From Candidatus Gottesmanbacteria bacterium RIFCSPHIGHO2_02_FULL_39_11 (GTDB lineage Bacteria; Patescibacteriota; Microgenomatia; 2-02-FULL-39-11): 64,000 nt of DNA. The stretch is from the NCBI GenBank assembly GCA_001779195.1, contig MFJL01000014.1, forward strand, positions 9,522 to 73,521. Direction: 5' to 3'. Shown piece after piece: positions 24,349-54,252 of the stretch. The translations under genes were made by a program, and so were the position numbers. Under the pieces are notes generated by a model, which did no database searches, had not been told where the DNA came from, and saw only the letters and a list, made by a program, of their open reading frames with translations. Each line of letters opens with the position of its first letter. The stretch's first letter is position 1.

Positions 24349-24364
24349 ATAATATGTTGAGCTT

Positions 24365-25024
24365 TTACACGGCTCCCTTACCGCTAATCATTGCCCAAGG
24401 AGTTTTTAAAAGTATCTTAATATCATACCACATGGACCGTCGTTTTACGTAATCAGCATCCATCGCGATTCTTTTATCAAAATTTACTTCGCTTCGTCCG
24501 GATACCTGCCAATATCCGGTAATTCCGGGACGGATGGAAAGCACCTCGCCGACAAGCTCCCGTGTGTTGGGATATTTTTTTTGCTGATTTTCAAGTTCGT
24601 CCGGATAGTAAGCACGGGGTCCTACAATACTCATTTCCCCTCTTAATACGTTAATAAGTTGGGGAATCTCATCCAGAGAATGCCGTCTCATAATTTTTCC
24701 GATGACAGTTACCCGGGGATCTTCTTTTAATTTATAACTGTTTTTTTTGTACTGCTCATATAGATTTTTCATTTTGGGATCATTCCGCAAAATGGTATGA
24801 GCATGCTCGATCATGGAGCGGAATTTATACATCTTAAAAAGCTTCCCTTTTTTACCCACCCTCTCAGGGGTATCCGCAAATACGGGCCCCGGTGAATTAA
24901 GTTTGATGGCAACAGCCAGAAAAAGACCGATCGGAGAAAATAACAAAAGGAGAAGAGAGGCAACAGCAATATCTACCAGTCTTTTGAATGTGGAATCGTA
25001 GTTTTCACCGTGAAAAAGAACCAT
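24365..25024 (-). CDS. Polyprenyl-phosphate phosphoglycosyltransferase (small bacterial sugar transferase, PglC/WbaP C-domain type)
   Basis: 219 aa with one N-terminal TM and the motifs IVGPRAYYPDEL and PGITGYWQVSGRSEV. Confidence 0.8.
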   Translation of the reverse strand: MVLFHGENYDSTFKRLVDIAVASLLLLLFSPIGLFLAVAIKLNSPGPVFADTPERVGKKGKLFKMYKFRSMIEHAHTILRNDPKMKNLYEQYKKNSYKLKEDPRVTVIGKIMRRHSLDEIPQLINVLRGEMSIVGPRAYYPDELENQQKKYPNTRELVGEVLSIRPGITGYWQVSGRSEVNFDKRIAMDADYVKRRSMWYDIKILLKTPWAMISGKGAV

Positions 25025-25048
25025 TATAAGAATGTTTTTGAGAAATTT

Positions 25049-26131
25049 TTAAACGAGATTTTCATTTTCAGAGTCCGCAAGGTTTTCGACAAGCTTTTTT
25101 ATCTTAGGAACTGAGTTTTTATTGCATACCAGAACCACATCATGGGTATTAATAACAATATACCCATCCAGATCAATTGCAACTACCATTTGGTCAGTAT
25201 AGTTATACACAAGATCATCCTCACAATCCGTCAGAAGTACTTTTCCCCGCGTCACATTTTGGTTTGGAGAAGTCTGCAGAGCCTCTTTTAAGGCCTCCCA
25301 CGCACCTACATCGCTCCATCCTAAATCTTCTGAAAGAACAACAGCGTTTTGTGAATTAATTTTTTCAAGAATGGCGTTATCAAATGAGATTTTCTTAAGA
25401 GTTGGATAAATCTCCGCAAGAACTTTCTGGTAGTTATCAGTACCTACGCTTTCATATATCTTTTTAAGACCGAGAAACATTTCCGGCTGATGCGTCTGAA
25501 ATAGCTTCCAGATAAATGAGGGGGTAGTTACAAAATATCCCAGATTCCATGCATGATTTCCGCTTTTGAAATACTTTTCCGCATCAACCGGGTTTGGACG
25601 GTACGAAAAATTTTGAAATGAGTGAAAATTGAATCCGTTTATTTTAAATTCTGCGGCTCCGTACTCAATCCACCCCAGATTTTGGCTTGCAAACCGGGGA
25701 GACTGACTGATAAATATAATTTTGTCCGGATTTTGTTTTATGTATTCCTCCGAAACTTTCAGAATATTTTTAAATAGGTCGTTTTTCTTAATGAGGTGAT
25801 CGCTCCATAAAATTACCATCGGAGTTTTGGGGTCTTTTTTTAAGAGATTAGCAATTACTAAACCAACCGCCGGACCAACATCCCGCATGGCGGGCTCTCC
25901 GATGACGTTTTTGGGAGGAAGACTGGAAAGCTGAGAAGTAACCATGGACAGGTACCTCTCCCCGGTACCGATATAAATATCTTCCCACTTAAAATCAGGA
26001 AGAAGTCTCTCAACGGCAAGCTGGAGAGTTGATTTATCTCCAATCACCTTTTCAAATTGCTTAGGTGAATGGCGCCTTGAGAGAGGCCACAAACGGGTCC
26101 CTACCCCTCCCGCAAAAATAACTGCTTTCAT
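25049..26131 (-). CDS. manC: Mannose-1-phosphate guanylyltransferase (ManC/GMP-like nucleotidyltransferase)
   Basis: 360 aa with the N-terminus MKAVIFAGGVGTRLWPLSRRHSPKQF. Confidence 0.8.
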   Translation of the reverse strand: MKAVIFAGGVGTRLWPLSRRHSPKQFEKVIGDKSTLQLAVERLLPDFKWEDIYIGTGERYLSMVTSQLSSLPPKNVIGEPAMRDVGPAVGLVIANLLKKDPKTPMVILWSDHLIKKNDLFKNILKVSEEYIKQNPDKIIFISQSPRFASQNLGWIEYGAAEFKINGFNFHSFQNFSYRPNPVDAEKYFKSGNHAWNLGYFVTTPSFIWKLFQTHQPEMFLGLKKIYESVGTDNYQKVLAEIYPTLKKISFDNAILEKINSQNAVVLSEDLGWSDVGAWEALKEALQTSPNQNVTRGKVLLTDCEDDLVYNYTDQMVVAIDLDGYIVINTHDVVLVCNKNSVPKIKKLVENLADSENENLV

Positions 26132-26166
26132 ATTGCTATGCTCTGGTGAAAAAACTTTTAATAAAC

Positions 26167-27303
26167 CTAATTTTTTTTACTATCTTTCCTATAATTTTCG
26201 TAATTTAATTCAACCGTCTGCCTTATACGGGACTTAAATATAGTTTCTGCGAAACGGGCTGCACTGCCTCTGCAGTTTTCTGATGAATACTTTGCCGGGT
26301 TAAACCGTTTTAACTGAACTGCTAAATCACGCACATGGGCTGACTCGTACATTTCTCCTGTGACACCCGGTATTACGGTTTCCTCAAGTCCCCCCTTTTT
26401 GAGTCCCAAAACGGGTTTTCCGCAGCTTTGAGCCTCAACTGCTGTTATGCCAAAATCTTCTTCGCCGGGAAAAATGAGGCAAAGGCTATTTTGATAGTAC
26501 CAGGCAAGCTGTTCATCTGTCAAACGGTTCGTTAAAAATTGGATTGTCGGGCCGGCCCGTAACATAAGATGTCTTCGGTCAATCCCGTCCCCTATAATTA
26601 TAAGCTTCTTTTTAAGAATATTGCAGGCATCTATTGCATAATCTATTCTTTTATAGGGAACCAAACGGGAAACAATCAGAAAATAATCTTCTTTTCCAGA
26701 TTTAGGAGCGACGCTGAATTGCTGCGTATTAACCGGAGGATATACAACGCTGCTCTCTCTCTTGTAGTACTTTCTAATTCTTTGGGACACGGTTTGAGAA
26801 ATTGCGATATAAGAGTCAGGTCTCTGGGCATATATAAAATCGTTTCTTCTTTGGGAGGGAATCACCATTCTGAGTGCAGTACGCGCCAACGGATTTACAT
26901 AGGAAAAACCGGGCTTATCAACGTAGATTTCAAATCCGCTCCACAGATACCGCGTAGGAGTAAGACAGTAACAAATATGCAAAGTACCCGGTTTTGTAAC
27001 TATTCTCTTTCCGTATGAAGACGTGATTGAAATAACTATATTATATTCATCAAAAGAAAAAGATTCGGATGATAAGGGAGATAAAAATGAATAACAAGAA
27101 GGATGTGCTGAAGCAAAGGGAAGCGTTTGAACATAAGAGGGAATAATCTTAAGGGTGGATGTCCAGGGAGTATTTTTCTTGTTATATACTGTTGTAAAAA
27201 TAGGAGCATCCGGCCATATACTGGAAAGAGATGTCAAAATTCTCTCCGCTCCTCCGAATTTGGTAATTTTATCATAAAAAAAAGCAATTCTGTACGAACT
27301 CAT
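26167..27303 (-). CDS. Glycosyltransferase family 4 (GT-B)
   Basis: 378 aa with the N-terminus IAFFYDKITKFGGAER and the E-x7-E motif EDFGITAVEAQSCGKPV. Confidence 0.7.
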   Translation of the reverse strand: MSSYRIAFFYDKITKFGGAERILTSLSSIWPDAPIFTTVYNKKNTPWTSTLKIIPSYVQTLPFASAHPSCYSFLSPLSSESFSFDEYNIVISITSSYGKRIVTKPGTLHICYCLTPTRYLWSGFEIYVDKPGFSYVNPLARTALRMVIPSQRRNDFIYAQRPDSYIAISQTVSQRIRKYYKRESSVVYPPVNTQQFSVAPKSGKEDYFLIVSRLVPYKRIDYAIDACNILKKKLIIIGDGIDRRHLMLRAGPTIQFLTNRLTDEQLAWYYQNSLCLIFPGEEDFGITAVEAQSCGKPVLGLKKGGLEETVIPGVTGEMYESAHVRDLAVQLKRFNPAKYSSENCRGSAARFAETIFKSRIRQTVELNYENYRKDSKKN

Positions 27304-27312
27304 AATAAGGGG

Positions 27313-28449
27313 TTAACTTCCTGCAATCTGCTGGTAAATTTTAAGGGTTTGATGTGCGGTTTTTTTAAAACTGAATCTGTCAATATTTTTTTTAGCTTGA
27401 ATTACTCTTTTTTTATATTCCTCATCCTTCAGACTTAAAGCATTTTTTAATACCTGGGCCATGCTTTCCTTTTTACTTGGATCGAAATAGAGTAAATCAC
27501 CCTTCCAAATTTCGCGAAATACAGGAATGTCTGAAACAACGGGCAAAACACCACAGGAAAGCGCCTCAAATGTAGGAAGTCCGAATCCTTCCATAAGAGA
27601 AGGAAAAACCAAAAGCTTAGCATATTTATAAAGACTTAATAATTGAGAATCATTTGCAAGACCGTAAAAAATTACAGAATCCTGTAAAGATAATTTTTGT
27701 GCAAAGTGAGAAAGCCTTGGATAAAAAAAAGAGTCATCACCTGCAAGTACCAGCTTAATTTTTTTATTTTTAATAAGAAGTTTGAATGCTTCCAAAAGTT
27801 TTTCTAAATTTTTATGAGGATAGGCATTTCCGACATATAAGATATAGGGCATGGAGAAAATAGGTTTGACATTTTTTTGTGAGGAGACTAATGATTTAAA
27901 ATGCTCATCAAGAGCATCATAAGTAACCTCAATTTTGGATGGATTGACTCCGTAATGATCCATAACCTCTTTTTTTGTAGTTTCAGAGATAGTAGTAATA
28001 AAACTTGCATTTCTGATTCCCTGAGAAAGAGAGACTTGGTATCCAAATCTTTTAAGCCGGTACAAAGGATACGCAAGTGTACTTGCCCGCCCGGTATTAA
28101 AATGATCCAAAATAAGGTCATGAATTGTCAAAAGATATCTCCCGCGATAAAAAATAGGCACGTTAAAATAAGGAAAATGAGCAACTGTTACTTTATCTTT
28201 TTTTAAAACGCTTGGAATAACTATCTGTTCTTTAACTCCGTGCCAGGGAAGGTCAACAAGACGTTTAACAAACTGAGATGAAGGAGGAACAAATTCTTCA
28301 AATTCCTTTTTCCGAAGATATATGTAATATTCATTACCTGAAGGAATTTTAGATAATTCCAGTATCAGGTTTCTGATATATCTTCCCACTCCCGTTTGAT
28401 AATAAAGTCTCGAGTCAATTCCGATTCTCATTCCTCTATTATAGTTCAC
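27313..28449 (-). CDS. Glycosyltransferase family 4 (GT-B)
   Basis: 378 aa with the E-x7-E motif MEGFGLPTFEALSCGVLPVVSD. Confidence 0.8.
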   Translation of the reverse strand: MNYNRGMRIGIDSRLYYQTGVGRYIRNLILELSKIPSGNEYYIYLRKKEFEEFVPPSSQFVKRLVDLPWHGVKEQIVIPSVLKKDKVTVAHFPYFNVPIFYRGRYLLTIHDLILDHFNTGRASTLAYPLYRLKRFGYQVSLSQGIRNASFITTISETTKKEVMDHYGVNPSKIEVTYDALDEHFKSLVSSQKNVKPIFSMPYILYVGNAYPHKNLEKLLEAFKLLIKNKKIKLVLAGDDSFFYPRLSHFAQKLSLQDSVIFYGLANDSQLLSLYKYAKLLVFPSLMEGFGLPTFEALSCGVLPVVSDIPVFREIWKGDLLYFDPSKKESMAQVLKNALSLKDEEYKKRVIQAKKNIDRFSFKKTAHQTLKIYQQIAGS

Positions 28450-31351: not shown

Positions 31352-31379
31352 AGTATACATCCTTTTGATAAAAAATCAA
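31352..31379 (-). promoter_or_regulatory. Predicted promoter for the T-box leader / argHG operon
   Basis: On the minus strand TTGATT (31374-31379), a 16-bp spacer and TATACT (31352-31357). It overlaps the stop codon of the upstream GT2 gene. Confidence 0.4.
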
Positions 31380-32278
31380 ATTTTGAAAAGTGAAACCAAT
31401 CTTTTAAACTCAATTGCACCAAGGATTAACCCTTTAACCCACCATGGGTATCTCTTCTGATAATGTTTTTTGTAAAATATTTTCATCACATCAAACCGGG
31501 CATTTGTGGCTTTTATCTTTGTCTCACGTGTTACGTTTGATAGGTCTATGGAATGCTTTTTTATCCCACTGCTCACTCCTTTATAATGCAGAATGGATAC
31601 CTGAGGAATATAGATAATTTTGCCTCCTTTTTCTTTTATGCGAAAGCAGAAATCCAAATCCTCCCCATACCAGAAATAGTCTTCATCCAGCCACCCAACT
31701 CTTTCCCCTGCGCTTCTTCTGATTAGAAGACATGCTCCTACTCCGCTGTCAATTTCATGAACTTTGTCTAAGTCTTTATACCCTAAATGATATCCATTTA
31801 ATAAATTACTATTTGGAAATAGTTTGCTAATCCCTAAAAAGTGGCAGAATGCATTCCATGGAGTAGGAAATCCTCTATGAGATGCATCATCCATCTGACC
31901 ATTTAGCAATACTATTTTAGGCGTTACAACAGCAACATCTGAATGACTGTCCAGATAGGAAACTAATGTTTCAATCGTTTTATCACTAATTACCGTATCA
32001 GGATTTAGAAGAAGAACGTAGTCTCCTTTTGATTTTTTTATAAGAATGTTGTTCGCTTTTGCAAATCCTACATTTATATCGCTTTGAAATACTTCTATAT
32101 CCTTAAAAGTTTTTTTAATGTAATCAAAACTTCCATCTGTTGAGGCATTATCCATTACTAAAATTTCGTACGTTAAATTATTAGGAATGCTTTTTTTAAG
32201 CGAGTCAACGCATTCCTTTATAAGGTTTTTAGAATTAAACGCAACTATAATAATAGATAATTTAAGATTTTTTGCCAT
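31376..32278 (-). CDS. Glycosyltransferase family 2 (GT-A)
   Basis: LSIIIVAFNSKN, DNASTDGS and a DxD-type GT2 fold. The start is adjusted to the internal ATG at 32276-32278 (MAKNLKLSII); the track ORF extends to 32368. Confidence 0.75.
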   Translation of the reverse strand: MAKNLKLSIIIVAFNSKNLIKECVDSLKKSIPNNLTYEILVMDNASTDGSFDYIKKTFKDIEVFQSDINVGFAKANNILIKKSKGDYVLLLNPDTVISDKTIETLVSYLDSHSDVAVVTPKIVLLNGQMDDASHRGFPTPWNAFCHFLGISKLFPNSNLLNGYHLGYKDLDKVHEIDSGVGACLLIRRSAGERVGWLDEDYFWYGEDLDFCFRIKEKGGKIIYIPQVSILHYKGVSSGIKKHSIDLSNVTRETKIKATNARFDVMKIFYKKHYQKRYPWWVKGLILGAIEFKRLVSLFKI

Positions 32279-33458
32279 AATATGCCCCTTCATAAATTCG
32301 ATCCAGATGTGAGGCAATTGTTTTCCAATTGAAGTTTTTTTCAACAAATGCCCGTCCTTCATAGGCAAGTCTTTCTGATAATTTGGGATTGGTTAAGACT
32401 TGAATTGTTTTATGAGCAAGTTCCTCAGGTGTCTCACCAATTAATGCATTTTTCCCGTCAACGGCGTTTAATCCTTCAATCCCAATTGATGTTGTGACGA
32501 CAGGAAGTCCGGATGCCATGGATTCAAGTATTTTATACCGGGTACCTCCCGGGCCGTATATGGGGGCAAGCATTACATCGGCGTTTGAGTATGCATCCGT
32601 AATGTTTTTAATATCAGATGAGACTTTGACCCAATCTGATTCATATTTTTTAAGAGACTCGGGAGCTGATCTTCCGACAATCCAGAGATTTGCCTGGGGC
32701 ATTTCCTTTCTTATAAGCGGCCATATTTTCTGCAAAAGTATCTCAACTGCCTCCCGGTTTTGAAGCCACTTAAACTGACCTACAAAAAGAATTGTTTTTT
32801 TCTTTCCGGTATTTTTTTTGCGGTTTATTTTGAAAAATTGGGCATCCACTCCATTGGGAACTAAATCAACGTTAATTCCCGGAACTAAATCCTCCATTAT
32901 TTTTTTATCAGCTTCAGACATAGCAACTACTCTTTTTGCATCTTTCCAGTATTTTTTTTCAAAATATCTGATTTTTAAGACATCAAAAAGCATGAGTATT
33001 TTTACAGGTAAAAATGTTACGGTTTCCGTATAGTGTTTATACACCAGATATTCAATGGTTTGTTCCACGAGAATTGTCGGCGTTGTGGTTTTTGGGATAT
33101 TGGGAAGCACATAAAATGTCTCAGCGTGGATAAGATCAAACCTCTTATTTTCAACAAGCTTGGCAATCTGAGATCTGACACTTCTTCTAAGATACAGACA
33201 TACAACCAAGGGATAAATGCTGATTGCTGACAATACCAGACTTTTTAACGACCACGGTTTCCTTTTTTGAAAAACATAAACACTTTCACAAAATTTCCTC
33301 AGCTCCTCTATATATTTTTTTTCACTATCATCCCGGATAAAAGAAACAAGGGTAATATGATGTTTGTGGGAAAGATTCTTCAGAAGATTGTATGTCCGTA
33401 TCTGGCCTCCGGAATACAACGGATAGGGCAAATAGGGAGTAAGCATCAGTATCTTCAT
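32262..33458 (-). CDS. Glycosyltransferase family 4 (GT-B)
   Basis: 398 aa with the E-x7-E motif ESMASGLPVVTTSIGIEGL. Confidence 0.8.
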   Translation of the reverse strand: MKILMLTPYLPYPLYSGGQIRTYNLLKNLSHKHHITLVSFIRDDSEKKYIEELRKFCESVYVFQKRKPWSLKSLVLSAISIYPLVVCLYLRRSVRSQIAKLVENKRFDLIHAETFYVLPNIPKTTTPTILVEQTIEYLVYKHYTETVTFLPVKILMLFDVLKIRYFEKKYWKDAKRVVAMSEADKKIMEDLVPGINVDLVPNGVDAQFFKINRKKNTGKKKTILFVGQFKWLQNREAVEILLQKIWPLIRKEMPQANLWIVGRSAPESLKKYESDWVKVSSDIKNITDAYSNADVMLAPIYGPGGTRYKILESMASGLPVVTTSIGIEGLNAVDGKNALIGETPEELAHKTIQVLTNPKLSERLAYEGRAFVEKNFNWKTIASHLDRIYEGAYYGKKS

Positions 33459-33459: not shown

Positions 33460-36400
33460 CTATCTTTGGGGAAGATCTTTATCCGGTACTAATTGAATAA
33501 GAATATAGTTAGGCAACTCCTGAATAATTTTATATCCTTTTGTGCTTTCTTTATTCAGAGCTTCTCTCATGAGCTGCTGGGTCACATCATCATAATTTAG
33601 GGATACATAATAATCAGCTCCCTTTTTAACAAGGCTGTCAATTGGCTCGGTGAGAACAGGCCATCCCCACCGGTGGGTCTGGTATAAAAACGCGGTATCT
33701 CCATTATAGGGAGCAACCACAAGCGCTTTATCCGGAGTGTATTTTTCAACAGCCAAGCCTGCTTCAATAATTTCAGGATGATTGATATTGTAATAGTCTT
33801 TAATAAAATACCATCCGAACATCAGCATAAAAATAAAACATATCAAAACAAAGGGATAGACAAAAACCCTATTAAATATCTTTCCTGCATGATCCAGAAG
33901 AAAAACTACTCCCTTAGCGGCAAAAATACATAGAATAGGCACTATAAATATCTGATAATAATCATGCCTTACATTTCCCGTTGCAATAACAACAAGATAC
34001 AAAAGTGCTCCGAGTCCCCATATATGAAAAACCCATCCTTCCTTCGGTTTTTTAAACAGGAGTCCCAGAGAAACAAAAACAACGCCCCAGTAGCCCAGAA
34101 TAAGTCTTCCAATTCGGTCTGCAAATATCCAGTAAAACCAGGCACCTTTGAACCGAATTCCGTCTCCGTTTAAAAGCCAAGTATATGCCGGGACTCCTTC
34201 AGGGAAATTGGCAACCCATTTTCTCCATAAGAGAAGTGGAATAAGTGTCGCAAAAAGCGCAATTCCGATTGCAAGCAACGTTGAAAAAGAAAGCTTAAGT
34301 CTTCTGATAAATACATATATAACAACAGGATATAAAAAGAGTGAGATGGGCTTAATTAAAGCAGCTCCGGATGCAAAGAGAAGGGCTAAAATGCCCGTTA
34401 ATATTAATTTAAGAATGATCCTTTTTTCTCTTTTTCCCTTACTGAATAAGGCAAGATGTATGGCAAATGTATCAAAGAAATAAATCATTCCGACAGATAA
34501 AGAAGCCAAAAGGGGTTCGGGCAAAATGACACGGCTGAAAAAAATATTGTATGGAATAACCGCAAAAAATATGGCAGTTAAAACCGATTCGCGTCTTCCT
34601 AAGAATCGTCTGGCAATAAGAAAAAGAAATATAATAGAGAGCAGGCTTGCAAATATGGAAGTCAGACGGCCTGAAATTTCAATCGTGTAACCGACAAAAA
34701 TCTTGTCCGTGACAGTTGAAAAAAAGTTGTACAAAGGAAATTCTACCATCCGGTATCCGTTGGGATTGTCCTTTCCGGATGCTACATTTGAAAGGTCATG
34801 GTAGGTAGGATACAAAAGATTAATTCCGTTTCTGACAAAACTGCGCGTTACCGAGGAAGTATCTGCCTGCCTCCATGAATGCCAGTCAGCAATAGGAGAA
34901 GTGATTTTATAAAGCCTGACGAAAAAAGCTAAGCCTAAAATAACCAGAAGAATAAATAAGTCCCCTTTTATAAAATGAAGAATACGGACCCTCGTACCTA
35001 TAAAAAATTCCGAGAGATCAGGAATGGAAGGCTTATCAACAGGACCTTTATGATCTTTTTTTAGAATCATAAGAGCAGAGAGGATAATTCCGCTTATTGC
35101 CCAAAACGTAAATGCGACTTTGGATGAAACAAATACATCAATATAAACTGCATTTGCAAAAAGCCCCATTGAAAGTCCGATAAATCCTGCAAAAAGAGAG
35201 AAAAATATAGGATCCTGCGCCACTTTAAGGTTTCTCCACACCAGATACATAGCTACGATGACGGTTCCGTAAAAAGCTACAAATCCCAAGATTCCCGTCT
35301 CCCCCAAGGTTCTAAGATAATCATTGTCGGTTGATTCCGCATCGGTAAAATCAGTAACATTTTGCTTATTAAGAGTTGCGTATCCGCTCCCCAGCAGGGG
35401 ATCCCGTTTAAATCCCGCAATAGCCATAGGCCAAAGTGCATCCAGACGTATCGCGGTTGAAAGATCATATCGAAACGCGGTGTTGGAATAGGTTCTATTT
35501 GTTGGAGTTAATACAGAACTGTCTGTAGCTGTTGGAATCAAAAGAGGGACATCCTCGTATACATCGCTCGGCCGACGGAGTGAAGGAGGCATATCACTCT
35601 TTGAGGTAATCTGAGATATGATATCGGAATTATTTTCAAGAAAAAGAGCGTTTTGAGTAGGCCTTTGAGCAAGAGGAGACATAAAAAGTGACTTGATATT
35701 TCCCAGTCTTTCATCCAACTTTAACAGTTTAGTAAACCGTTCAGACAGGTCCCCAAAAGACAGCATAAGAACAATAGATAAGGTAATCACCCCTATCCAC
35801 CGTGCTACCGACCATGCAATCCCCTTCCGATATGCCCATATGAAAAACATAAAAGTCAGTCCTCCCAGATAGGCAAGAAAAGAGATTCGAGAGGCAGTAA
35901 GTATTAGAGTCCAAAAAGCTGCTCCTATAATTACAAAAACACCAGCTCGTAAGTACCACCTCTTTACTGCAAAAAATAGACTCCACAAGAGAATAAGCAC
36001 CATCATGATAAAAGCCGCAAGATCATAGTGACCTCCGAATGTTGAGAGAACCCGGGCATGTTCCGTAAGATACAAAACCCAGCCCTTAGAAAACTCCCGA
36101 TTCATAGTAGAAAAAGCCGGCCAATATAGATATTTTTGACCAAACCCATACACTGCTACACACACAACAGTAGCTAGAAGAATTCCGATTAATATTTTCA
36201 CCTGCTTGAGATTTCTAATCGACGAAAAAAGAATAAAAAACAGTGAAAAATACTCAATACGTCTGAGGTAATGAAGAACCATTTTGCCGATATGTAGAGT
36301 CTGTAAAGGAACTGTTTGGATGACAAAAACAGCCGTAATCATGGTCAAAAACCCGAAAGTAAGATAAATTAAAATTGGTTTAAACAGGGGATAGTCAGAT

Positions 36401-36603
36401 AGCTTTGTTTTTCCCCGAATGAGGTAGAAAAGCCAGAGTAAAATCGCAAAACTTACTATAAAATCCTCAATTCTTACTCGGACTATATATCCGGGAAGAG
36501 CATCTAAAAGAGGAAGCTTAGGCATAAGAGGAATAAAAGCGATCAAAAACGCCGAGAAGGCAAATAAGAGATGGCTATCCAGCCACTTCAAAAGCTTTAT
36601 CAT
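33460..36603 (-). CDS. Fusion membrane protein: N-terminal Wzy_C/O-antigen ligase-like domain plus C-terminal ArnT/PMT-like GT-C glycosyltransferase (GT39/GT83-like)
   Basis: 1047 aa with more than 20 predicted TM segments. The N-half carries the O-antigen ligase/polymerase signature ...DNDYLRTLGETGILGFVAFYG. The C-half carries an ArnT/YkcB-like first loop (HSWRQADTSSV) and GT-C topology. Confidence 0.6.
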   Translation of the reverse strand: MIKLLKWLDSHLLFAFSAFLIAFIPLMPKLPLLDALPGYIVRVRIEDFIVSFAILLWLFYLIRGKTKLSDYPLFKPILIYLTFGFLTMITAVFVIQTVPLQTLHIGKMVLHYLRRIEYFSLFFILFSSIRNLKQVKILIGILLATVVCVAVYGFGQKYLYWPAFSTMNREFSKGWVLYLTEHARVLSTFGGHYDLAAFIMMVLILLWSLFFAVKRWYLRAGVFVIIGAAFWTLILTASRISFLAYLGGLTFMFFIWAYRKGIAWSVARWIGVITLSIVLMLSFGDLSERFTKLLKLDERLGNIKSLFMSPLAQRPTQNALFLENNSDIISQITSKSDMPPSLRRPSDVYEDVPLLIPTATDSSVLTPTNRTYSNTAFRYDLSTAIRLDALWPMAIAGFKRDPLLGSGYATLNKQNVTDFTDAESTDNDYLRTLGETGILGFVAFYGTVIVAMYLVWRNLKVAQDPIFFSLFAGFIGLSMGLFANAVYIDVFVSSKVAFTFWAISGIILSALMILKKDHKGPVDKPSIPDLSEFFIGTRVRILHFIKGDLFILLVILGLAFFVRLYKITSPIADWHSWRQADTSSVTRSFVRNGINLLYPTYHDLSNVASGKDNPNGYRMVEFPLYNFFSTVTDKIFVGYTIEISGRLTSIFASLLSIIFLFLIARRFLGRRESVLTAIFFAVIPYNIFFSRVILPEPLLASLSVGMIYFFDTFAIHLALFSKGKREKRIILKLILTGILALLFASGAALIKPISLFLYPVVIYVFIRRLKLSFSTLLAIGIALFATLIPLLLWRKWVANFPEGVPAYTWLLNGDGIRFKGAWFYWIFADRIGRLILGYWGVVFVSLGLLFKKPKEGWVFHIWGLGALLYLVVIATGNVRHDYYQIFIVPILCIFAAKGVVFLLDHAGKIFNRVFVYPFVLICFIFMLMFGWYFIKDYYNINHPEIIEAGLAVEKYTPDKALVVAPYNGDTAFLYQTHRWGWPVLTEPIDSLVKKGADYYVSLNYDDVTQQLMREALNKESTKGYKIIQELPNYILIQLVPDKDLPQR

Positions 36604-37495
36604 AAAGTTCCTTGCGAGATTTATGCTTAGGTATTATACCAAATAAGATGCTTCTAAGCTTAATTCCTGCTTGTAGCAGAAGCTGAACCGTCTTCTGCTG
36701 CCACCGAGGCTTATATTTCCTGTAAAAATAAAGGATAAATTTAAATTCTTCAATGATTCCCGCGTCCTTGCCTATTCTTGATGAACCACCTTTGTCATGT
36801 ATAATTTGAATAGAAGGATCTAATTTTACCTCATATCCGGCCCATTTTATGCGAAAGCACCATTCTACCTCTTCTCCATACATAAAGAGAGATTCATCTA
36901 ACAGTCCAATCTTATCAACAACCTCTTTCCTAGCCATGAAATATGCTCCACTCACCCAGTCTACGTTCTGAGACTTTTTGTAAAATCCTGAATTTTCCAC
37001 ATGGTATGGCTTTAAAAAGTGATTCAGTAAAGGAATATCATCAACAAAGAACATCCAGTTAAAAACAGAAATTAAAGTAGGGAAAAAACCAGCAGACTTT
37101 TGCAATGTTCTATCTTCATACACGAGTTTTCCCCCGACAACTCCTAGAGATTTATCTTTTTTAAAATCTTCAATCGATTTTTCAATTGCCCGGTCATTTA
37201 CTCTGGCATCCGTATTTAAAAGAAGAATATACTCCCCTTTTGACTTTAAAATTGCCTGATTATTTGCCTTTGCAAATCCCACATTTTCTTTATTTTCGAT
37301 AAGCGTAACTCTAGGAAAGTTCTCCTTTAATGTTTTCAGGCTTTCATCAGATGAAGCATTATCAACAACCATTATTTCGCTCTTGTCTGTTAGATTTGAA
37401 ATTCTTAATGAGTTATATAGAGAATCAAGACAGGATTTAAGAAGAGAGGACGTATTGTAGTTGACGATAACAATAGATAAAAGACGCTTGTCCAC
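36575..37495 (-). CDS. Glycosyltransferase family 2 (GT-A)
   Basis: 306 aa with LSIVIVNYNTSSLL and VDNASSDES. Confidence 0.8.
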   Translation of the reverse strand: MDKRLLSIVIVNYNTSSLLKSCLDSLYNSLRISNLTDKSEIMVVDNASSDESLKTLKENFPRVTLIENKENVGFAKANNQAILKSKGEYILLLNTDARVNDRAIEKSIEDFKKDKSLGVVGGKLVYEDRTLQKSAGFFPTLISVFNWMFFVDDIPLLNHFLKPYHVENSGFYKKSQNVDWVSGAYFMARKEVVDKIGLLDESLFMYGEEVEWCFRIKWAGYEVKLDPSIQIIHDKGGSSRIGKDAGIIEEFKFILYFYRKYKPRWQQKTVQLLLQAGIKLRSILFGIIPKHKSRKELYDKAFEVAG

Positions 37496-39288: not shown

Positions 39289-40400
39289 AGTATGCTTTGG
39301 TAAACTTTTAACGTTTCCTCTGCTGTTTTTTCCCATGTAAATTTTTTAACATGATTTTTTCCTTTTTCAATTAAATTATCCCGCATTTTTTTATCTTCCA
39401 GAACTTCGCTTATGACTTTTTCCAGCTTTTCTTCACTGGTTGGATCAATAAGAATTGCCGCCGCACCACTTACTTCCTTCATGCTTCCTATATTTGACGT
39501 AACAACCGGACACCCGGCACTCATCGCCTCAAGTATAGGTAGCCCAAATCCTTCATACAAAGAAGGGTAAACAAAAAGACTCGCTCCTTTATATATAGCG
39601 GGCATATCCGGTGCGGGTATAAATCCTGTATAGCAAATTTTTTCATTTCTTTCCGCCGCATCCATCCATCCCGGTTTTCCAACAATTACCAGATTATATT
39701 GGTTTATTTTGTTTTGTTTTTTTAAATTTAAAAATGCAGTTATAAGCAAATTAAGATTTTTACGCGGTTCAATGGTTCCTACTGCTAATATGTATTTATT
39801 GGGCAACTCATATTTTACCAGAGTCTTTTTGCTATCTTCGTCGGTAGCCTCACTAAACAGTGAATTAACTCCTGAATAAATAACTGAAATTTTTTTCGGA
39901 TCAATTCGGAATGCTTTGACTAAATCACTTTCTGTAGTTTTGGAGACGCTTATAATTTTATCGCATTCACTTGCAACATGCAGAAGCCTCCGGCTGTGAG
40001 TTTTTATGATATATGCTTGGGAAACTTCGGGAAATTTAAAAGGAACTAAGTCATGAACGGTCGTCACTTTTTTTGCGCTGGCGGGAAATTGTATCCAGTC
40101 TGAAGAATGGTAGACATCATACGTCCCGATAAAAGTTTCAATCTTCGGAAAATGGATGTAGTTTCCTAAAATGTTTGCAAATTTTTCAGGGAGGGAAATT
40201 ACTTTACTCTCAAAGTTTGAAGAAAACTCCGCCAATTCATGTATGAAATTGGAAATTTTTCGGTCTTCTTTTGTAAAAGCAAAAAGCAGGTAATGATTTT
40301 TTTTATCAATTAAAAGAAGGTGACGCACCAGTTCTTTTGTGTATACGGAAACTCCGGTTCCTTCGTATACAATTTGAGAGATATCAATTGCTATTGTCAT
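39285..40400 (-). CDS. Glycosyltransferase family 4 (GT-B)
   Basis: 371 aa with YEGFGLPILEAMSAGCPVVTS. Confidence 0.8.
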   Translation of the reverse strand: MTIAIDISQIVYEGTGVSVYTKELVRHLLLIDKKNHYLLFAFTKEDRKISNFIHELAEFSSNFESKVISLPEKFANILGNYIHFPKIETFIGTYDVYHSSDWIQFPASAKKVTTVHDLVPFKFPEVSQAYIIKTHSRRLLHVASECDKIISVSKTTESDLVKAFRIDPKKISVIYSGVNSLFSEATDEDSKKTLVKYELPNKYILAVGTIEPRKNLNLLITAFLNLKKQNKINQYNLVIVGKPGWMDAAERNEKICYTGFIPAPDMPAIYKGASLFVYPSLYEGFGLPILEAMSAGCPVVTSNIGSMKEVSGAAAILIDPTSEEKLEKVISEVLEDKKMRDNLIEKGKNHVKKFTWEKTAEETLKVYQSIL

Positions 40401-41191
40401 GGTAGTATTGATACTTGAAAAATTTTCCTGTAGACCGGCTCTTCATTTCTTCTTCTTAAAAAAGGGATAAGGAAGAGCATCACTTTCCGATAAAATATAG
40501 CCTTCAGAGGATTTTTAGACATCCACCCTTGCATCAAAACCTCTCGGATCTTAAGACTCTCATTTCCGATTATATTGATTTCTACTTTTTTGTGTGTCAC
40601 AAGGGAAGCATTTTTTATTTCCTTTAGAATTTCCTCAAGAGAGGGTAGCCCGAGTCCGATCTGCTCTTGTAAAAAATGATAATGCTTATGATGAATTCTT
40701 TCATATTCATAATCTAACCTCTCATCCTGCTCCTGGGCCTTTTTACCTGCAGGAACACCGATAAAAAACATCTTTTTGGCAACTCGCATCATTTCTTCAA
40801 CTGCTTTTGACCGGTTACCGGTACTTATATGCTCAAGCGTATCTGTTGAAACAACTACATCATATGAATTATCAGGAAAAGGAATTCCGATTGCAGAACC
40901 TTTTACCTGTTTTAAATTCGGATGATAGGGAGGATAAAATTCTATGTCCAAACCCGTAACCGGACGCCTGATATAAGGGGCGATACCCAACCCTCCGGAT
41001 CCTACATCTAAAATTGAAGGATTTCCCGGAAGTTTTTTTATAGAATCAACGATGGGAAGATACCGTAAAGCGACCTCGGGATGCCAGCGGTAAAATATAA
41101 AGAAGCCCGTTATATAAGCCAGTAAATCAGATTCTATCATAAATATATATAAAGCCCACCCCGGGATAGTTTTTGATACCTGTATTTTCAA
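40397..41191 (-). CDS. Class I SAM-dependent methyltransferase with an N-terminal membrane segment
   Basis: 264 aa with the SAM motif ILDVGSGGLGIAP and an N-terminal hydrophobic helix. Confidence 0.7.
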   Translation of the reverse strand: MKIQVSKTIPGWALYIFMIESDLLAYITGFFIFYRWHPEVALRYLPIVDSIKKLPGNPSILDVGSGGLGIAPYIRRPVTGLDIEFYPPYHPNLKQVKGSAIGIPFPDNSYDVVVSTDTLEHISTGNRSKAVEEMMRVAKKMFFIGVPAGKKAQEQDERLDYEYERIHHKHYHFLQEQIGLGLPSLEEILKEIKNASLVTHKKVEINIIGNESLKIREVLMQGWMSKNPLKAIFYRKVMLFLIPFLRRRNEEPVYRKIFQVSILP

Positions 41192-42530
41192 ACCCTAGTG
41201 ATAAAAGATATTTTCTCGTTTTGCCAGTAGGATCCGTAAGACCGGTCAGGTACTCAAAGAGATATACGCGATCTTTACCTTGGACAAACGGAACCATCCG
41301 AACAAGATCCTGTCCGGTTAAAATAAAATGGGGAGCAATACCGCGTGCTTCTACTTTACCGGTCTGATACCAAAGAAAGGGTGCGAAGGGATCAGGAAAT
41401 ACAAAAAGCGCAAGCTTGTTTGAATTACTATTATCATTTTCAACATATGCTACCGCATCCCTCCAGTTCTCTCTTTGCACGGATGGATCTAAATAATACT
41501 GCAACAGCCCGGAAAGTGCGATTACTACAACCAGAAAGATTCCGATAGATTTTATTTTTTTGGGAAGACACAACAATCCATCTGCTGTTATAAGATAAAA
41601 AAACGGAATCAGAAATAAAAGTCGTTGAGGAGCCAGAATCGGAATAAAAAAGGAAACCAGAAACAAAGAAATAAAAGAAGAAACAAAAAAAATAAAAATA
41701 AAATCAAAATTTTTTTCTCTTATTCTTCTGACAATTCCTAAAGAGAAAAAAATCAGTCCGGGAATTAAAATAAGTCCATATAACAGATGGTCACTGATAC
41801 TTCCTTTTCCGAATGCAAATTTAGCAAACATGAGGGTCACCGCTTTTAAGGGCGCAAAGGAAACGACATCTGTCCATCCTGCAAAAACCCCTCCGGTTCC
41901 GATTTTCAGCTGTTCAATAAATGACGGTATCCACGGAATATAAAAAATAAGACTGCAGATTATACAATATATCCACCGATGCAATAATTTTCTTTCTTTT
42001 AAGAAAATCCACATGCCCTGACCGATAAGAACAAATGGCCAAAAATAAAGAGAGTAGATTAAAAAAACTACGCCTATAAAATAAAATACCCATTTTTTCC
42101 TCAAAAGTAAAAAGCTTGTTAGCAGGGTTAAAAAAACAAACAGCATATACGGTCTTGCTTCCTGCGAGTACCAAATGTGATAGGGGGAAATAGAAAGAAG
42201 AAATGCTGTAAGAATACTTTTATTAATATTTTCTTTTTTAGGTATTAAATATGCGATAAGTAAGATACAGCCCGTCCCAAGAATCACAGATGGTAGCCGT
42301 ATCCAGTTTTCTGTGTGAGAAAATATCATCCCAAAATGCAAAAATATATGGTAGAGGGGCGGGTGAAAATCGGCTGCGAGTTTAAATTGCAAAAATATCG
42401 GCCGTGCAGATTCAATAACCTGTGCCGCCTCATCCAGCCAAAAGGATTGGTTTAAATTGACAAGCCTCAGAATAAAAGCAAGTATAATAACAAACAAAAT
42501 ATAGTATGATTTTTCAATACTTTTTTTCAT
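41127..42530 (-). CDS. GT-C membrane glycosyltransferase, family 39/PMT_2-like (polyprenyl-P-sugar dependent)
   Basis: 467 aa and polytopic, with the first-loop motif NQSFWLDEAAQV typical of ArnT/PMT-type enzymes. Confidence 0.65.
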   Translation of the reverse strand: MKKSIEKSYYILFVIILAFILRLVNLNQSFWLDEAAQVIESARPIFLQFKLAADFHPPLYHIFLHFGMIFSHTENWIRLPSVILGTGCILLIAYLIPKKENINKSILTAFLLSISPYHIWYSQEARPYMLFVFLTLLTSFLLLRKKWVFYFIGVVFLIYSLYFWPFVLIGQGMWIFLKERKLLHRWIYCIICSLIFYIPWIPSFIEQLKIGTGGVFAGWTDVVSFAPLKAVTLMFAKFAFGKGSISDHLLYGLILIPGLIFFSLGIVRRIREKNFDFIFIFFVSSFISLFLVSFFIPILAPQRLLFLIPFFYLITADGLLCLPKKIKSIGIFLVVVIALSGLLQYYLDPSVQRENWRDAVAYVENDNSNSNKLALFVFPDPFAPFLWYQTGKVEARGIAPHFILTGQDLVRMVPFVQGKDRVYLFEYLTGLTDPTGKTRKYLLSLGFENTGIKNYPGVGFIYIYDRI

Positions 42531-43372
42531 TTTGATTTACGTTCCCCAAAAAATGACATTGAAATGCTTCTCCTTATTCCAAGAGAATATATATAAGAAA
42601 AAGGAATCATTCCTATCTCTTTATATTGAAACGCTTTAATAAAACTTATAACCGTTTGAACAGCAAGTGAATAACGAAAAATATTAATTATTTTTCTGAT
42701 AAGATTTCCTGAGATAAATTCATTTTTTCCAATCCATCTTGCTTGTCTGTAGATTTCTTTTAAAGAATCCGGGTTATGATGGTAGCAAATTGCTCCTTTT
42801 GCCAGAGTTGCTTTGATTCCTAATTTTCTAGATAATGTCCAGTCATCTGTAAATCCTATGTCTGAAAATCCTCCGACTTTTTCAAATTCTTTTTTTAAAA
42901 TAGCGCGAAATACAGGAGATTTATCAGAATAATCTTGAGGAATTCTTCTTTTATCTTTTATTCCCTGATAATAGTTCCAGCACCGGGCCCATTTGTTTTC
43001 CCAATTTGACACATACTCTTCTTTTGTAAATGTTCCTTTTGTTTTTTTATTTTCAATAGGCTCAACTAACTTTTTGATAAAGTCGCGATCAAATGTCATA
43101 TCCGCATCCACAAACACCAGAATGTCCCCTTTTGCATGAGAAACTCCTAAATTCCTAGCCGGCCCAGGTCCTTTATGTTCTTGTCTATAATAAGACATAT
43201 CGCACAATTTTTGGATTTTGTCCGCCTGCCAGCGGATTGGATTTTGAGCTTCATTACTTCCGTCATCAACCAAAATTATTTCACTATCAGAATAGGATTG
43301 CATAGAAAGTGAATCCAAACAACTGGTAATGGTTTCCTCCTCGTTATACATAGGAATAATAATTGAGACCAT
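42527..43372 (-). CDS. Glycosyltransferase family 2 (GT-A)
   Basis: 281 aa with MVSIIIPMYNEEETI, VDDGS and DADM. Confidence 0.8.
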   Translation of the reverse strand: MVSIIIPMYNEEETITSCLDSLSMQSYSDSEIILVDDGSNEAQNPIRWQADKIQKLCDMSYYRQEHKGPGPARNLGVSHAKGDILVFVDADMTFDRDFIKKLVEPIENKKTKGTFTKEEYVSNWENKWARCWNYYQGIKDKRRIPQDYSDKSPVFRAILKKEFEKVGGFSDIGFTDDWTLSRKLGIKATLAKGAICYHHNPDSLKEIYRQARWIGKNEFISGNLIRKIINIFRYSLAVQTVISFIKAFQYKEIGMIPFSYIYSLGIRRSISMSFFGERKSK

Positions 43373-44904: not shown

Positions 44905-44922
44905 ACTTGAAGATTATCACAT

Positions 44923-49502: not shown

Positions 49503-49528
49503 AATACTTCTTTATACACGAACAGACC

Positions 49529-53430: not shown

Positions 53431-54252
53431 TCAAAAAATCATTCTCTTTACCATTTTAACTGGCGTTAGGATTGCAGATTCAATAGTGTATACGGTTGAA
53501 CGCTTAGTATGAACATCAGAGACAAACGTGGGATGTTTTTGATTAAAAATATCAGGAATTTTAACAGTATCAGGAAACGATCTGCCCCATTCAATTTTAT
53601 ATTTATTTCTGTGAAATGTCGTTTGAATATTTGCACCGCTTGATGACCTTTTCAGGTACATCGCATGCCACAATTTACCCGTCGTAAAATAAAACAAATG
53701 CGGTGAATGATGGATAATTTCCCTGCCTGATTTATCATAATACCCCTCATAGGGATAGCTCCCTGAAACTCTGATACCGTTTATATTTTTCTTATTAATA
53801 AGCCTTACTACGATGTGCCCTTTTTTTCCAAAAAGATGATAAGGACCAACGTCTGGATTTTGAAAATGGTATATGTCTCCCAGTAAATCATATCTTCCTA
53901 CAACAATCCCTTCCAGAGTCTCTCCTTTTGTTGTTATTACATTTTTAATTTCTTCACATAAGAAACTAGGGTAGATTTCATCCCCGTCCACTACCCAAAA
54001 CCAATCAGTTGTTGTCTTATCTACCTGCTCTTCTCGTATGCGTGCTATATCTATAACATCACGGACTTCCCTTTCATAAAATTCTATTTTTTTTGAGTTA
54101 AAAGATTTAATAATTTTTATCGTATTATCTGTTGAACCGGTATCTGCAATAAAGATTCTGTCAGCATAGGGAAGAACAGATGATATGGAATACCAAATAA
54201 AACGGTCTTCATTTTTAACCATCATGTGGACGGTTAACTGATTATTTTTCAT
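53431..54252 (-). CDS. Glycosyltransferase family 2-like (GT-A)
   Basis: 273 aa with MMVKNEDRFI and ADTGSTDNT. Confidence 0.6.
   Translation of the reverse strand: MKNNQLTVHMMVKNEDRFIWYSISSVLPYADRIFIADTGSTDNTIKIIKSFNSKKIEFYEREVRDVIDIARIREEQVDKTTTDWFWVVDGDEIYPSFLCEEIKNVITTKGETLEGIVVGRYDLLGDIYHFQNPDVGPYHLFGKKGHIVVRLINKKNINGIRVSGSYPYEGYYDKSGREIIHHSPHLFYFTTGKLWHAMYLKRSSSGANIQTTFHRNKYKIEWGRSFPDTVKIPDIFNQKHPTFVSDVHTKRSTVYTIESAILTPVKMVKRMIF

What the first reader, a model, noticed from the sequence alone, without database searches (positions are those of the whole stretch)
33460..36603. 1047-aa fusion of an O-antigen ligase/polymerase-like (Wzy_C) domain to an ArnT/PMT-like GT-C glycosyltransferase
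This is a single ORF with no internal stop.
- N-terminal half (~520 aa, ~12 TM): carries the Wzy_C/WaaL/PglL-type signature (...NDYLRTLGETGILGFVAFYG). This is the domain used by O-antigen ligases and protein O-oligosaccharyltransferases.
- C-terminal half: looks like a YkcB/ArnT-type GT39/GT83 enzyme (HSWRQADTSSV first loop, polytopic).

A covalent fusion of a ligase/O-OTase-like module with a polyprenyl-P-sugar transferase would couple glycan transfer and elaboration in one polypeptide. I am not aware of a characterized example.
Basis: partly seen in the sequence, partly recalled or inferred. Interest (0 to 1): 0.7.

Follow-up and report, generated by a model that had tools for sequence, protein, structure and literature searches.

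The report
Fused Wzy-like polymerase and GT-C glycosyltransferase

Summary
The ORF is real: minus strand, 33460-36603, 1047 aa, no internal stop. It is not an assembly artefact, because more than 120 full-length protein clusters (50-81% identity) and 26 other species-level genomes carry the same fused gene.

About 50 other Microgenomates genomes encode the two halves as adjacent, often overlapping genes inside the same syntenic ~16-gene glycan cluster. Fused genes form one exclusive clade, so this is a single lineage-specific fusion of a conserved gene pair.

The ligase/O-oligosaccharyltransferase reading is not supported. The two diphosphate-binding Args are kept (R239, R386), but the signature catalytic His is an invariant Asp (D426; 154 of 155 sequences). 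That is the pattern reported for Wzy-type and SEDS polymerases.

Best reading: a Wzy-type polymerase coupled on the outer membrane face to a polyprenyl-phosphate-sugar GT-C, acting on one conserved glycopolymer. I found no literature on it. It is moderately interesting: a new variant of known kinds.

The parts
33460..36603 (-). Whole fused ORF, 1047 aa plus stop
   Evidence: identical protein P0001 in NCBI
35053..36603 (-). N module, aa 1-517: 12-TM Wzy_C-superfamily (GT-C_B, WaaL-like) fold, N-in/C-in
35272..35922 (-). Pfam Wzy_C match (aa 228-444), with a ~70-aa insertion in the large outer loop
35887..35889 (-). R239 codon. Equivalent to EcWaaL R215 (Pfam profile position 16), a proposed Und-PP phosphate ligand
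   Evidence: R or K in 153 of 155 homologues
35446..35448 (-). R386 codon. Motif-level equivalent of EcWaaL R288; second proposed diphosphate ligand
   Evidence: motif only; the pairwise alignment is not significant; 157 of 157 conserved
35284..35337 (-). ESTDNDYLRTLGETGILG motif (aa 423-440). D426 occupies the position of the WaaL/PglL catalytic His
   Evidence: Pfam ruler gives profile position 130 for both EcWaaL H338 and query D426. Invariant positions have identical spacing: H338-N339-x9-G349-xx-G352 in the WaaL family and D426-N427-x9-G437-xx-G440 here. D in 154 of 155 sequences. Translation checked
34963..35052 (-). Cytoplasmic linker (aa 518-547), the fusion junction. Basic, and the least conserved region
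   Evidence: conservation 0.34 against 0.63-0.70 elsewhere. It corresponds to the N-gene tail, the stop and the GT-C gene start of split orthologues
33793..34962 (-). GT-C_A membrane module (aa 548-937), ArnT/PMT-like
34858..34887 (-). First outer loop motif DWHSWRQADT (aa 573-582). D573 and D581 are candidate catalytic acids
   Evidence: D573 136/136, R578 136/136, Q579 136/136, D581 135/136; position relative to TM1; translation checked
33463..33792 (-). C-terminal extracytoplasmic alpha/beta domain (aa 938-1047) carrying the invariant APYxGDTAFLYQ...GWP motif
36575..37495 (-). Upstream GT2; overlaps the fusion start by 29 nt. Conserved neighbour, fused directly to the GT-C orthologue in P0125
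37515..40400 (-). Conserved neighbours: hexapeptide acyltransferase (37515-38108), GT4 (38128-39336), GT4 (39285-40400)
40397..43372 (-). Methyltransferase (40397-41191), second PMT_2-type GT-C (41127-42530), GT2 (42527-43372); recurrent upstream part of the cluster
31376..33458 (-). Conserved downstream GT4 (32262-33458; its start lies 1 nt after the fusion stop) and GT2 (31376-32368)
22420..28449 (-). Distal conserved part of the cluster: GT4, GT4, ManC-like nucleotidyltransferase, priming Bac_transf phosphoglycosyltransferase (24365-25024), DUF4012 protein (22420-24348)
54242..55537 (-). Wzx-type flippase (Polysacc_synt). Candidate flippase for the pathway, but outside the conserved synteny

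Best explanation
The protein is a two-enzyme membrane machine made by fusing two neighbouring genes of a conserved Microgenomates surface-glycan cluster.

Proposed pathway:
1. The cluster's Bac_transf phosphoglycosyltransferase primes undecaprenyl phosphate. The flanking GT2 and GT4 enzymes, acyltransferase and methyltransferase build an Und-PP-linked oligosaccharide, which is then flipped outward (inferred from gene content).
2. The N module is a 12-TM WaaL-like GT-C_B fold. R239 and R386 would hold the diphosphate, and D426 would act as the base in place of the ligase His. It acts as a Wzy-type inverting polymerase on that Und-PP-linked unit (inferred from fold plus the residue pattern).
3. 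The C module is an ArnT/PMT-like GT-C_A fold with D573 and D581 in its first outer loop. It uses a polyprenyl-monophosphate sugar, plausibly mannose given the conserved ManC and the PMT-family similarity. It adds a residue to the same glycan, either creating the polymerase's acceptor or decorating the chain as it grows (inferred by family analogy).

Both active sites face outward, and the roughly 30-aa linker is cytoplasmic. The fusion hard-wires a partnership that relatives achieve with two adjacent, often overlapping genes, which may be translationally coupled.
For: SHOWN
- The ORF and its domains.
- The fused gene recurs in >120 protein clusters and 26 other genomes.
- The halves are adjacent genes with 4- or 8-nt overlaps, or separated by a single in-frame stop, in ~50 other genomes.
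- All 27 fused loci form one exclusive clade.
- The 16-gene order is syntenic in all 17 of the 20 inspected loci with enough flanking DNA; the 3 short contigs (L028, L046, L079) show only part of it, in the same order except L046.
- Polar residues in both halves are near-invariant across ~155 and ~136 sequences.
- D426 sits at the EcWaaL H338 position by the Pfam ruler and by identical spacing of four invariant positions.
- R239 aligns with R215, also in hhalign.
- The window contains a PGT, ManC and Wzx.
- The topology is 12 TM, a basic linker, then GT-C TM1.

FROM LITERATURE
- O-antigen ligases have two Args plus a His. SEDS and the Wzy-type families of the same clan have Asp or Glu aligned with that His. 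GT39/GT83 use lipid-P-monosaccharide donors, and clan GT-C1 uses lipid-PP-oligosaccharide donors. Low sequence diversity goes with a fixed donor and acceptor (PMC10920833).
- His-to-Ala inactivates PglS (PMC12800693).
- Adjacent GT-A/GT-C pairs and a polymerase followed by a GT-C occur in Gram-positive wall polysaccharide synthesis (PMC9574508).
- The GT2::GT-C fusion P0125 links the upstream GT2 to the GT-C module.
Against: - There is no biochemical data for any member.
- The His-to-Asp mapping rests on Pfam coordinates and motif spacing. Profile-profile alignment to a WaaL family profile was not significant (probability 0.5%), and the pairwise alignment did not exceed shuffles.
- Wzy polymerases are normally hypervariable, whereas this module is 35-60% identical across class-level lineages.
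- No Wzz-type co-polymerase and no GtrA-type flippase was found in the window. The only Wzx lies 18 kb away, outside the conserved synteny.
- The upstream GT2 has no clear TM segment, unlike GtrB/ArnC-type polyprenyl-P-sugar synthases.
- PMT_2 is below Pfam's cut-off in this particular protein.
- One contig (L083) has the GT-C orthologue with no adjacent Wzy-like gene.
Confidence: 0.45

Rival explanations
1. Polymerase plus final transferase. The N module polymerises the Und-PP-linked repeat unit. The GT-C module then transfers the finished chain en bloc to its final acceptor (another wall polymer, peptidoglycan, a lipid or a protein). This would resemble L. lactis WpsI followed by the GT-C WpsJ, or an OST-like enzyme.
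Confidence: 0.2
2. The N module is a WaaL/PglL-like ligase or protein O-oligosaccharyltransferase that transfers an Und-PP-glycan en bloc (for example to an S-layer protein or pilin), using Asp instead of His as the base. The GT-C elaborates or primes the acceptor, in the way the glycosyltransferase domain of Brucella WadA prepares the ligase's acceptor.
Against: The defining catalytic His is absent: Asp in 154 of 155 sequences and never His. Characterised ligases and O-OTases keep it: EcWaaL H338 is invariant in its family, as are PglS H324, WadA H605 and CmWaaL H313 (PMC12800693, PMC9938171, PMC10920833). The organism is a CPR bacterium with no lipid A-core acceptor expected (general knowledge).
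Confidence: 0.2
3. Artefact or degenerate fusion. Either the ORF results from an assembly or sequencing error joining two genes, or one module is catalytically dead and serves only as a scaffold.
For: The two halves are separate genes in most relatives, some in the same frame and separated by one stop codon.
Against: Fused ORFs occur in 27 species-level genomes from independent studies and in >120 protein clusters, and they form one clade. The candidate catalytic residues of both halves are essentially invariant in fused and split forms.
Confidence: 0.02

Closest known systems
Wzy-type bacterial polysaccharide polymerases of CAZy clan GT-C1 (GT125-GT129), and SEDS polymerases (GT119)
   Same: GT-C_B fold. 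One or two conserved Args for the Und-PP diphosphate, and an Asp or Glu where ligases have His (PMC10920833). The cluster includes a priming PGT and many GTs, and a Wzx is present in the window.
O-antigen ligase WaaL (GT121; PDB 7TPG/7TPJ) and the O-oligosaccharyltransferases PglL and PglS
   Different: The catalytic His is replaced by an invariant Asp. No sequence-level match to any PDB chain. Profile-profile alignment to enterobacterial WaaL is not significant. No lipid A-core is expected in this organism.
ArnT (GT83; PDB 5EZM/5F15) and protein O-mannosyltransferases (GT39)
   Different: The loop motif is D-W-H-S-W-R-Q-x-D-T rather than the PMT 'DE' motif. About 12-14% identity. Acceptor and sugar are unknown. 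Here it is covalently tied to a Wzy-like module.
Brucella WadA (GT25 + GT121 bimodular O-antigen ligase)
   Same: A characterised single polypeptide that joins a glycosyltransferase acting on the acceptor to a Wzy_C-superfamily module, with coupled action (PMC9938171, PMC10920833).
   Different: WadA's glycosyltransferase is a soluble cytoplasmic GT-A-type domain, so its two sites lie on opposite membrane faces, and its ligase keeps the His. Here both modules are polytopic GT-C enzymes facing outward, and the His is Asp.
Lactococcus lactis WpsI / WpsJ, and three-component GT-A + flippase + GT-C glycosylation systems
   Same: Extracytoplasmic polymerisation followed by, or combined with, a GT-C transferase acting on the same wall polysaccharide. 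Genes are adjacent in one cluster (PMC9574508).
   Different: These are separate proteins. The PSP pathway uses monophosphate-linked intermediates, whereas this cluster has a Bac_transf PGT implying diphosphate-linked units. No homology was established here.

Membership tests
Wzy_C superfamily (Pfam PF04932; GT-C_B / CAZy clan GT-C1) | Significant match to the Wzy_C profile | tested here: met
   56.4 bits against a 31.7-bit cut-off, aa 228-444; also met in split orthologues
Wzy_C superfamily (Pfam PF04932; GT-C_B / CAZy clan GT-C1) | About 12-TM WaaL-like fold with a large outer loop before the last three helices | tested here: met
Wzy_C superfamily (Pfam PF04932; GT-C_B / CAZy clan GT-C1) | Conserved Arg residues that bind the Und-PP diphosphate | tested here: met
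   R239 corresponds to EcWaaL R215 (Pfam ruler plus hhalign). R386 resembles R288 at motif level. Both are conserved
O-antigen ligase / O-oligosaccharyltransferase (GT121; WaaL, PglL, PglS, WadA) | Catalytic His near the end of the large outer loop (EcWaaL H338, CmWaaL H313, PglS H324) | tested here: not met
   Position occupied by D426: Asp in 154 of 155 homologues, never His
O-antigen ligase / O-oligosaccharyltransferase (GT121; WaaL, PglL, PglS, WadA) | En bloc transfer of an Und-PP-glycan to lipid A-core or a protein Ser/Thr | not testable with these tools
   Requires biochemistry
Wzy-type polymerase (BP-Pol, clan GT-C1) | Asp or Glu aligned with the ligase His, plus one or two Args | tested here: met
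   D426, R239, R386; rule taken from PMC10920833
Wzy-type polymerase (BP-Pol, clan GT-C1) | Genomic context of a Wzx/Wzy pathway: priming PGT, repeat-unit GTs, Wzx flippase, Wzz/PCP co-polymerase | tested here: inconclusive
   PGT and GTs lie in conserved synteny. Wzx is present but 18 kb away and outside the conserved block. No Wzz/PCP found in the window
Wzy-type polymerase (BP-Pol, clan GT-C1) | Assignment to a CAZy BP-Pol family HMM (GT122-GT135) | not testable with these tools
   CAZy/dbCAN HMMs are not available here. The E. coli K-12 WbbH control gave no Pfam hit
GT-C_A, ArnT/PMT-like (GT83/GT39; Pfam PMT_2/PMT) | Profile match to PMT_2 or PMT | tested here: inconclusive
   This protein scores 24.0 bits against the 26.1-bit cut-off. 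Orthologues pass: PMT_2 at 1.3e-17 and 5.5e-15, PMT at 2.5e-12; precomputed PF13231/PF02366 in many homologues
GT-C_A, ArnT/PMT-like (GT83/GT39; Pfam PMT_2/PMT) | GT-C_A fold with an outer C-terminal domain | tested here: met
GT-C_A, ArnT/PMT-like (GT83/GT39; Pfam PMT_2/PMT) | Conserved acidic residue in the first outer loop after TM1 | tested here: met
   D573 136/136 and D581 135/136; loop position from the AF2 secondary structure. Residue-level equivalence to ArnT or PMT residues is not established
GT-C_A, ArnT/PMT-like (GT83/GT39; Pfam PMT_2/PMT) | Polyprenyl-monophosphate-monosaccharide donor | not testable with these tools
   Inferred from family precedent only (PMC10920833)
Oligosaccharyltransferase (GT66; STT3/PglB/AglB) | STT3 profile match and WWDxG / DxD motifs | tested here: not met
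SEDS peptidoglycan polymerase (FtsW/RodA; GT119) | FTSW_RODA_SPOVE profile match and closest fold | tested here: not met

The most novel reading that the evidence does not exclude
The Wzy-like / GT-C pair, covalently fused in Gottesmanbacteria, is the core of an undescribed 'common antigen' pathway of Microgenomates. In this reading a polymerase hands its Und-PP-linked product directly to a GT-C that serves as the final attachment enzyme. The GT-C would replace the LCP- or WaaL-type ligases used by other bacteria, and the pathway would build an envelope polymer central to the episymbiotic lifestyle of these ultra-small cells.
Probability: 0.2. Interest if true: 0.7.

Novelty: new variant of a known kind. 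Interest (0 to 1): 0.45.

Why it matters
A stable natural fusion, backed by a conserved and often overlapping gene pair in hundreds of genomes, is strong genomic ('Rosetta stone') evidence. It indicates that a Wzy-like polymerase and a GT-C transferase work as one physical unit on the outer face of the membrane. That kind of coupling is hard to show for Wzy enzymes, which are poorly understood.

The finding also flags a 16-gene, class-wide conserved glycan cluster in Microgenomates, organisms whose envelopes are essentially uncharacterised and which cannot yet be grown alone.

The single-chain form is a convenient target for expression, cryo-EM and in vitro reconstitution. It also corrects the database name 'O-antigen ligase family protein', which is probably wrong for this family.

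Tried and rejected
- Sequence searches of the protein and of its family profile against all PDB chains gave no hits, even at E<=10.
- NCBIfam gave no hit.
- hhalign of each half against single E. coli WaaL or ArnT sequences gave probabilities of 0.7-6%, unusable for residue mapping.
- A local pairwise alignment of EcWaaL against the N-half scored no better than shuffles (48 against 44.6 +/- 7.6). It paired D426 with the non-conserved H324, so I disregarded it.
- Profile-profile alignment of A1 against a 26-member WaaL family profile was not significant (probability 0.5%), although it did pair R239 with R215.
- E. coli K-12 WbbH, intended as a polymerase control on the Pfam ruler, has no Wzy_C hit, so there is no control.
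- The AFDB50 fold search, meant to look for the double architecture outside this clade, was unavailable.
- Literature searches found nothing relevant: Wzy_C+PMT_2; O-antigen ligase+CPR; Patescibacteria+O-antigen ligase; Microgenomates+glycosyltransferase; CPR+Wzy.
- A search for a second Wzy_C-like paralogue in the window found none.
- GtrA, Wzz and LCP proteins were not found among the window ORFs scanned.
- A frameshift or assembly artefact is rejected on recurrence and monophyly.
- An OST or SEDS identity is rejected on motifs, Pfam results and fold ranking.
Full report
**Observation**

The window carries one uninterrupted 1047-codon ORF at 33460-36603 on the minus strand. An identical protein is already in NCBI as 'hypothetical protein A3D77_02365 [Candidatus Gottesmanbacteria bacterium RIFCSPHIGHO2_02_FULL_3...]'.

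Pfam finds Wzy_C (PF04932) at aa 228-444, at E 3.8e-15 and 56 bits against a 31.7-bit cut-off. It finds PMT_2 (PF13231) at aa 623-793, at E 5e-5 and 24.0 bits, just under the 26.1-bit cut-off. NCBIfam has nothing.

**Is the fusion real?**

Yes.
- More than 120 protein clusters at 50-81% identity cover 100% of the query. Many have precomputed PF04932 plus PF13231/PF02366.
- In a scan of one genome per GTDB species, at least 555 loci encode a relative.
- Of the 80 loci kept, 26 have a single ORF spanning both halves.

Sequencing error or frameshift is therefore excluded as the explanation.

**The key context: a lineage-specific fusion of a conserved gene pair**

In about 50 of the 80 loci the same two halves are two adjacent genes. 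These loci come from Curtiss-, Beckwith- (including the complete genome CP011210.1), Woese-, Roizman-, Pace-, Chisholm- and Shapirobacteria. Each has a Wzy_C-like gene (~480-570 aa) immediately followed by a GT-C gene (~475-500 aa).
- The two genes show 4- or 8-nt overlaps, gaps of a few nucleotides, or in several lineages the same frame separated by one stop codon.
- Among 1.84 billion representatives, only two further full-length fusion representatives appear. Many N-only and C-only proteins appear.
- In a neighbour-joining tree of the GT-C halves, the 27 fused genes (including the window's) form one exclusive clade.
- The ~30-aa linker (aa 518-547) is basic and the least conserved region, at 0.34 against 0.63-0.70 elsewhere.

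**Gene neighbourhood**

The pair sits in a syntenic, same-strand cluster. All 17 of the 20 inspected loci with enough flanking DNA show it; the 3 short contigs (L028, L046, L079) show only part of it, in the same order except L046. The order is:

(GT2) - PMT_2-type GT-C - (methyltransferase) - GT4 - GT4 - hexapeptide acyltransferase - GT2 - [Wzy-like | GT-C] - GT4 - GT2 - GT4 - GT4 - ManC-like - Bac_transf priming phosphoglycosyltransferase - DUF4012

- In this window argG and argH are inserted into the cluster.
- A Wzx flippase lies at 54242-55537, outside the conserved block.
- A peptidoglycan/dcw cluster occupies 413-19222.
- No Wzz, LCP or GtrA protein was detected among the window ORFs scanned.

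**Structure**

An AF2 model built from 46 homologues has mean pLDDT 78 and pTM 0.65. The membrane cores are confident, but several outer loops of the N-half are not.

| Search | Target | Score |
|---|---|---|
| Foldseek | ArnT | TMt 0.62 |
| Foldseek | WaaL | TMt 0.64 |

Sequence searches against PDB chains find nothing.

The helix pattern gives a 12-TM N module (N-in, C-in), a cytoplasmic linker, then the GT-C module. The first loop of the GT-C module (DWHSWRQADT) and its C-terminal alpha/beta domain lie outside. Both catalytic sites therefore face the outer side of the membrane. This is an inference from topology.

**Ligase or polymerase?**

I used Pfam Wzy_C coordinates as a common ruler. 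E. coli WaaL 205-354 maps to profile positions 6-146, and the query 228-444 maps to profile positions 5-148.
- EcWaaL R215 and query R239 both fall on profile position 16. hhalign pairs them as well.
- EcWaaL H338 and query D426 both fall on profile position 130.
- The spacing of invariant positions is identical. It is H338-N339-x9-G349-xx-G352 in a 26-member WaaL family alignment and D426-N427-x9-G437-xx-G440 in the query family.
- R386 (AIRLDALW) resembles EcWaaL R288 (GARLAMYE) at motif level only.
- Across ~155 fused, split and distant homologues, position 426 is Asp in 154 and never His. R386 is invariant, and R239 is Arg or Lys.

The literature gives the rule.
- O-antigen ligases have two Args that bind the Und-PP phosphates and a His proposed to activate the acceptor.
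- SEDS polymerases have an essential Asp aligned with that His.
- O-oligosaccharyltransferases keep the His, and PglS H324A is inactive (PMC12800693). Brucella WadA keeps it as H605 (PMC9938171).

The N module therefore fails the defining test for a ligase or O-OTase and fits the polymerase pattern.

Caveat: the mapping rests on the Pfam ruler and motif spacing. Profile-profile and pairwise alignments to WaaL were not significant.

**The GT-C half**

Orthologous stand-alone genes hit PMT_2 and PMT robustly. The fold is closest to ArnT and PMT. There is no STT3 hit and no WWD or DxD motif. D573, R578, Q579, D581, E621, R794, N877, H880, D881, Q884 and D969 are essentially invariant, which argues for an active enzyme.

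By family precedent, GT39 and GT83 enzymes use lipid-monophosphate monosaccharides, whereas clan GT-C1 enzymes use lipid-diphosphate oligosaccharides (PMC10920833).

One relative (P0125, locus L083) fuses the orthologue of the upstream GT2 directly to the GT-C orthologue. This is a second hint that this GT-C works with a GT2-made donor, as in GT-A plus GT-C glycosylation systems (PMC9574508).

**Most likely mechanism (confidence about 0.45)**

1. The cluster builds an Und-PP-linked oligosaccharide on the cytoplasmic face, and it is flipped outward.
2. The N module polymerises it. R239 and R386 hold the diphosphate, and D426 acts as the base.
3. The GT-C module adds a sugar from a polyprenyl-phosphate donor to the same glycan. 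The sugar is plausibly mannose, given the conserved ManC. The addition either creates the acceptor or decorates the chain.

The unusually high conservation of the module and of its cluster suggests one fixed polymer shared across Microgenomates. That would be comparable in logic to the enterobacterial common antigen (PMC10920833 links low sequence diversity to a fixed donor and acceptor).

Rivals:
- The GT-C is the final en bloc transferase, like L. lactis WpsJ after the polymerase WpsI (0.2).
- Artefact or a dead module (0.02).

**Novelty**

Both modules belong to known superfamilies. Fusion of adjacent operon genes is a common evolutionary event. A characterised bimodular glycosyltransferase plus ligase (WadA) already exists.

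However, I found no description of a Wzy-like::GT-C (GT-C_B::GT-C_A) fusion, of the conserved pair, or of this Microgenomates cluster. Databases label the proteins 'O-antigen ligase family protein', 'glycosyltransferase family 39 protein' or hypothetical.

I rate it a new variant of a known kind, with interest about 0.45.

Noticed in passing
P0135, P0169, P0182 (representatives); L074 4074-7262; L079 317-3409: Many homologues of the Wzy-like module are 1000-1270 aa because they carry a different C-terminal extension. In three of the proteins scanned (P0135, P0169, P0182) it contains a calcineurin-like phosphoesterase (Metallophos) domain. In L074 and L079 such a long gene is followed by the separate GT-C gene, but no Metallophos hit was found in those two. 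A phosphoesterase tied to an Und-PP-using enzyme could recycle the lipid carrier; this was not examined further.
   Followed up: partly
L083 819-3218 (protein P0125): An alternative fusion: the orthologue of the window's upstream GT2 (36575-37495; 37% identity over its full length) is fused directly to the GT-C orthologue, and no Wzy-like gene lies between them on that 4.6-kb contig.
   Followed up: partly
L076 9065-11850: Two tandem copies of the GT-C gene follow the Wzy-like gene in one genome.
   Followed up: no
window 28446-31050: argG and argH (argininosuccinate synthase and lyase) are inserted in the middle of the otherwise conserved glycan cluster in this genome. None of the 80 related loci has them there.
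   Followed up: partly
window 22420-24348: A 642-aa DUF4012 protein ends the conserved cluster next to the priming phosphoglycosyltransferase in most lineages. Its function is unknown; it is a candidate co-polymerase, export or anchoring component.
   Followed up: no
window 43390-52383 and 58829-60514: A second, more variable region is packed with polytopic membrane proteins. These are a DUF2079 protein plus five large ORFs with no Pfam hit (44923-46485 +, 47287-48732 +, 49529-50929, 50935-52383, 58829-60514). Alongside them lie a DPM1-like GT2, methyltransferases, a Wzx, another PMT_2 GT-C (55547-57109) and GT10/GT11 fucosyltransferase-like genes. The ORFs without hits are probably further GT-C or Wzy-like enzymes.
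   Followed up: partly
window 35554-35724 (aa 294-350 of the fusion): The large outer loop of the N module is modelled with very low confidence (pLDDT <50) yet is well conserved (0.64). It includes a near-invariant SKSDxPPxxxRPSDV stretch, which may be a functional element that folds only with substrate or a partner.
   Followed up: no
window 413-19222: The dcw/peptidoglycan cluster has extra genes: a FemAB-family transferase and a DegT-type aminotransferase between mraY and a Mur ligase, a DAGK_prokar (undecaprenol or diacylglycerol kinase-like) gene next to mraY, and an alpha/beta hydrolase.
   Followed up: no
L005, L009, L011, L012 and other loci: Many MAG records that carry this Microgenomates-type locus are titled 'uncultured Gammaproteobacteria' or 'Pseudomonadales'. 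L056 is labelled Omnitrophota. These record titles look like placeholder or wrong taxonomy.
   Followed up: no
window 32262-32368: The listed TTG start of the GT2 ORF 31376-32368 overlaps the upstream GT4 by 107 nt. The true start is probably the internal Met just before 'AKNLKLSIIIVAF'.
   Followed up: no
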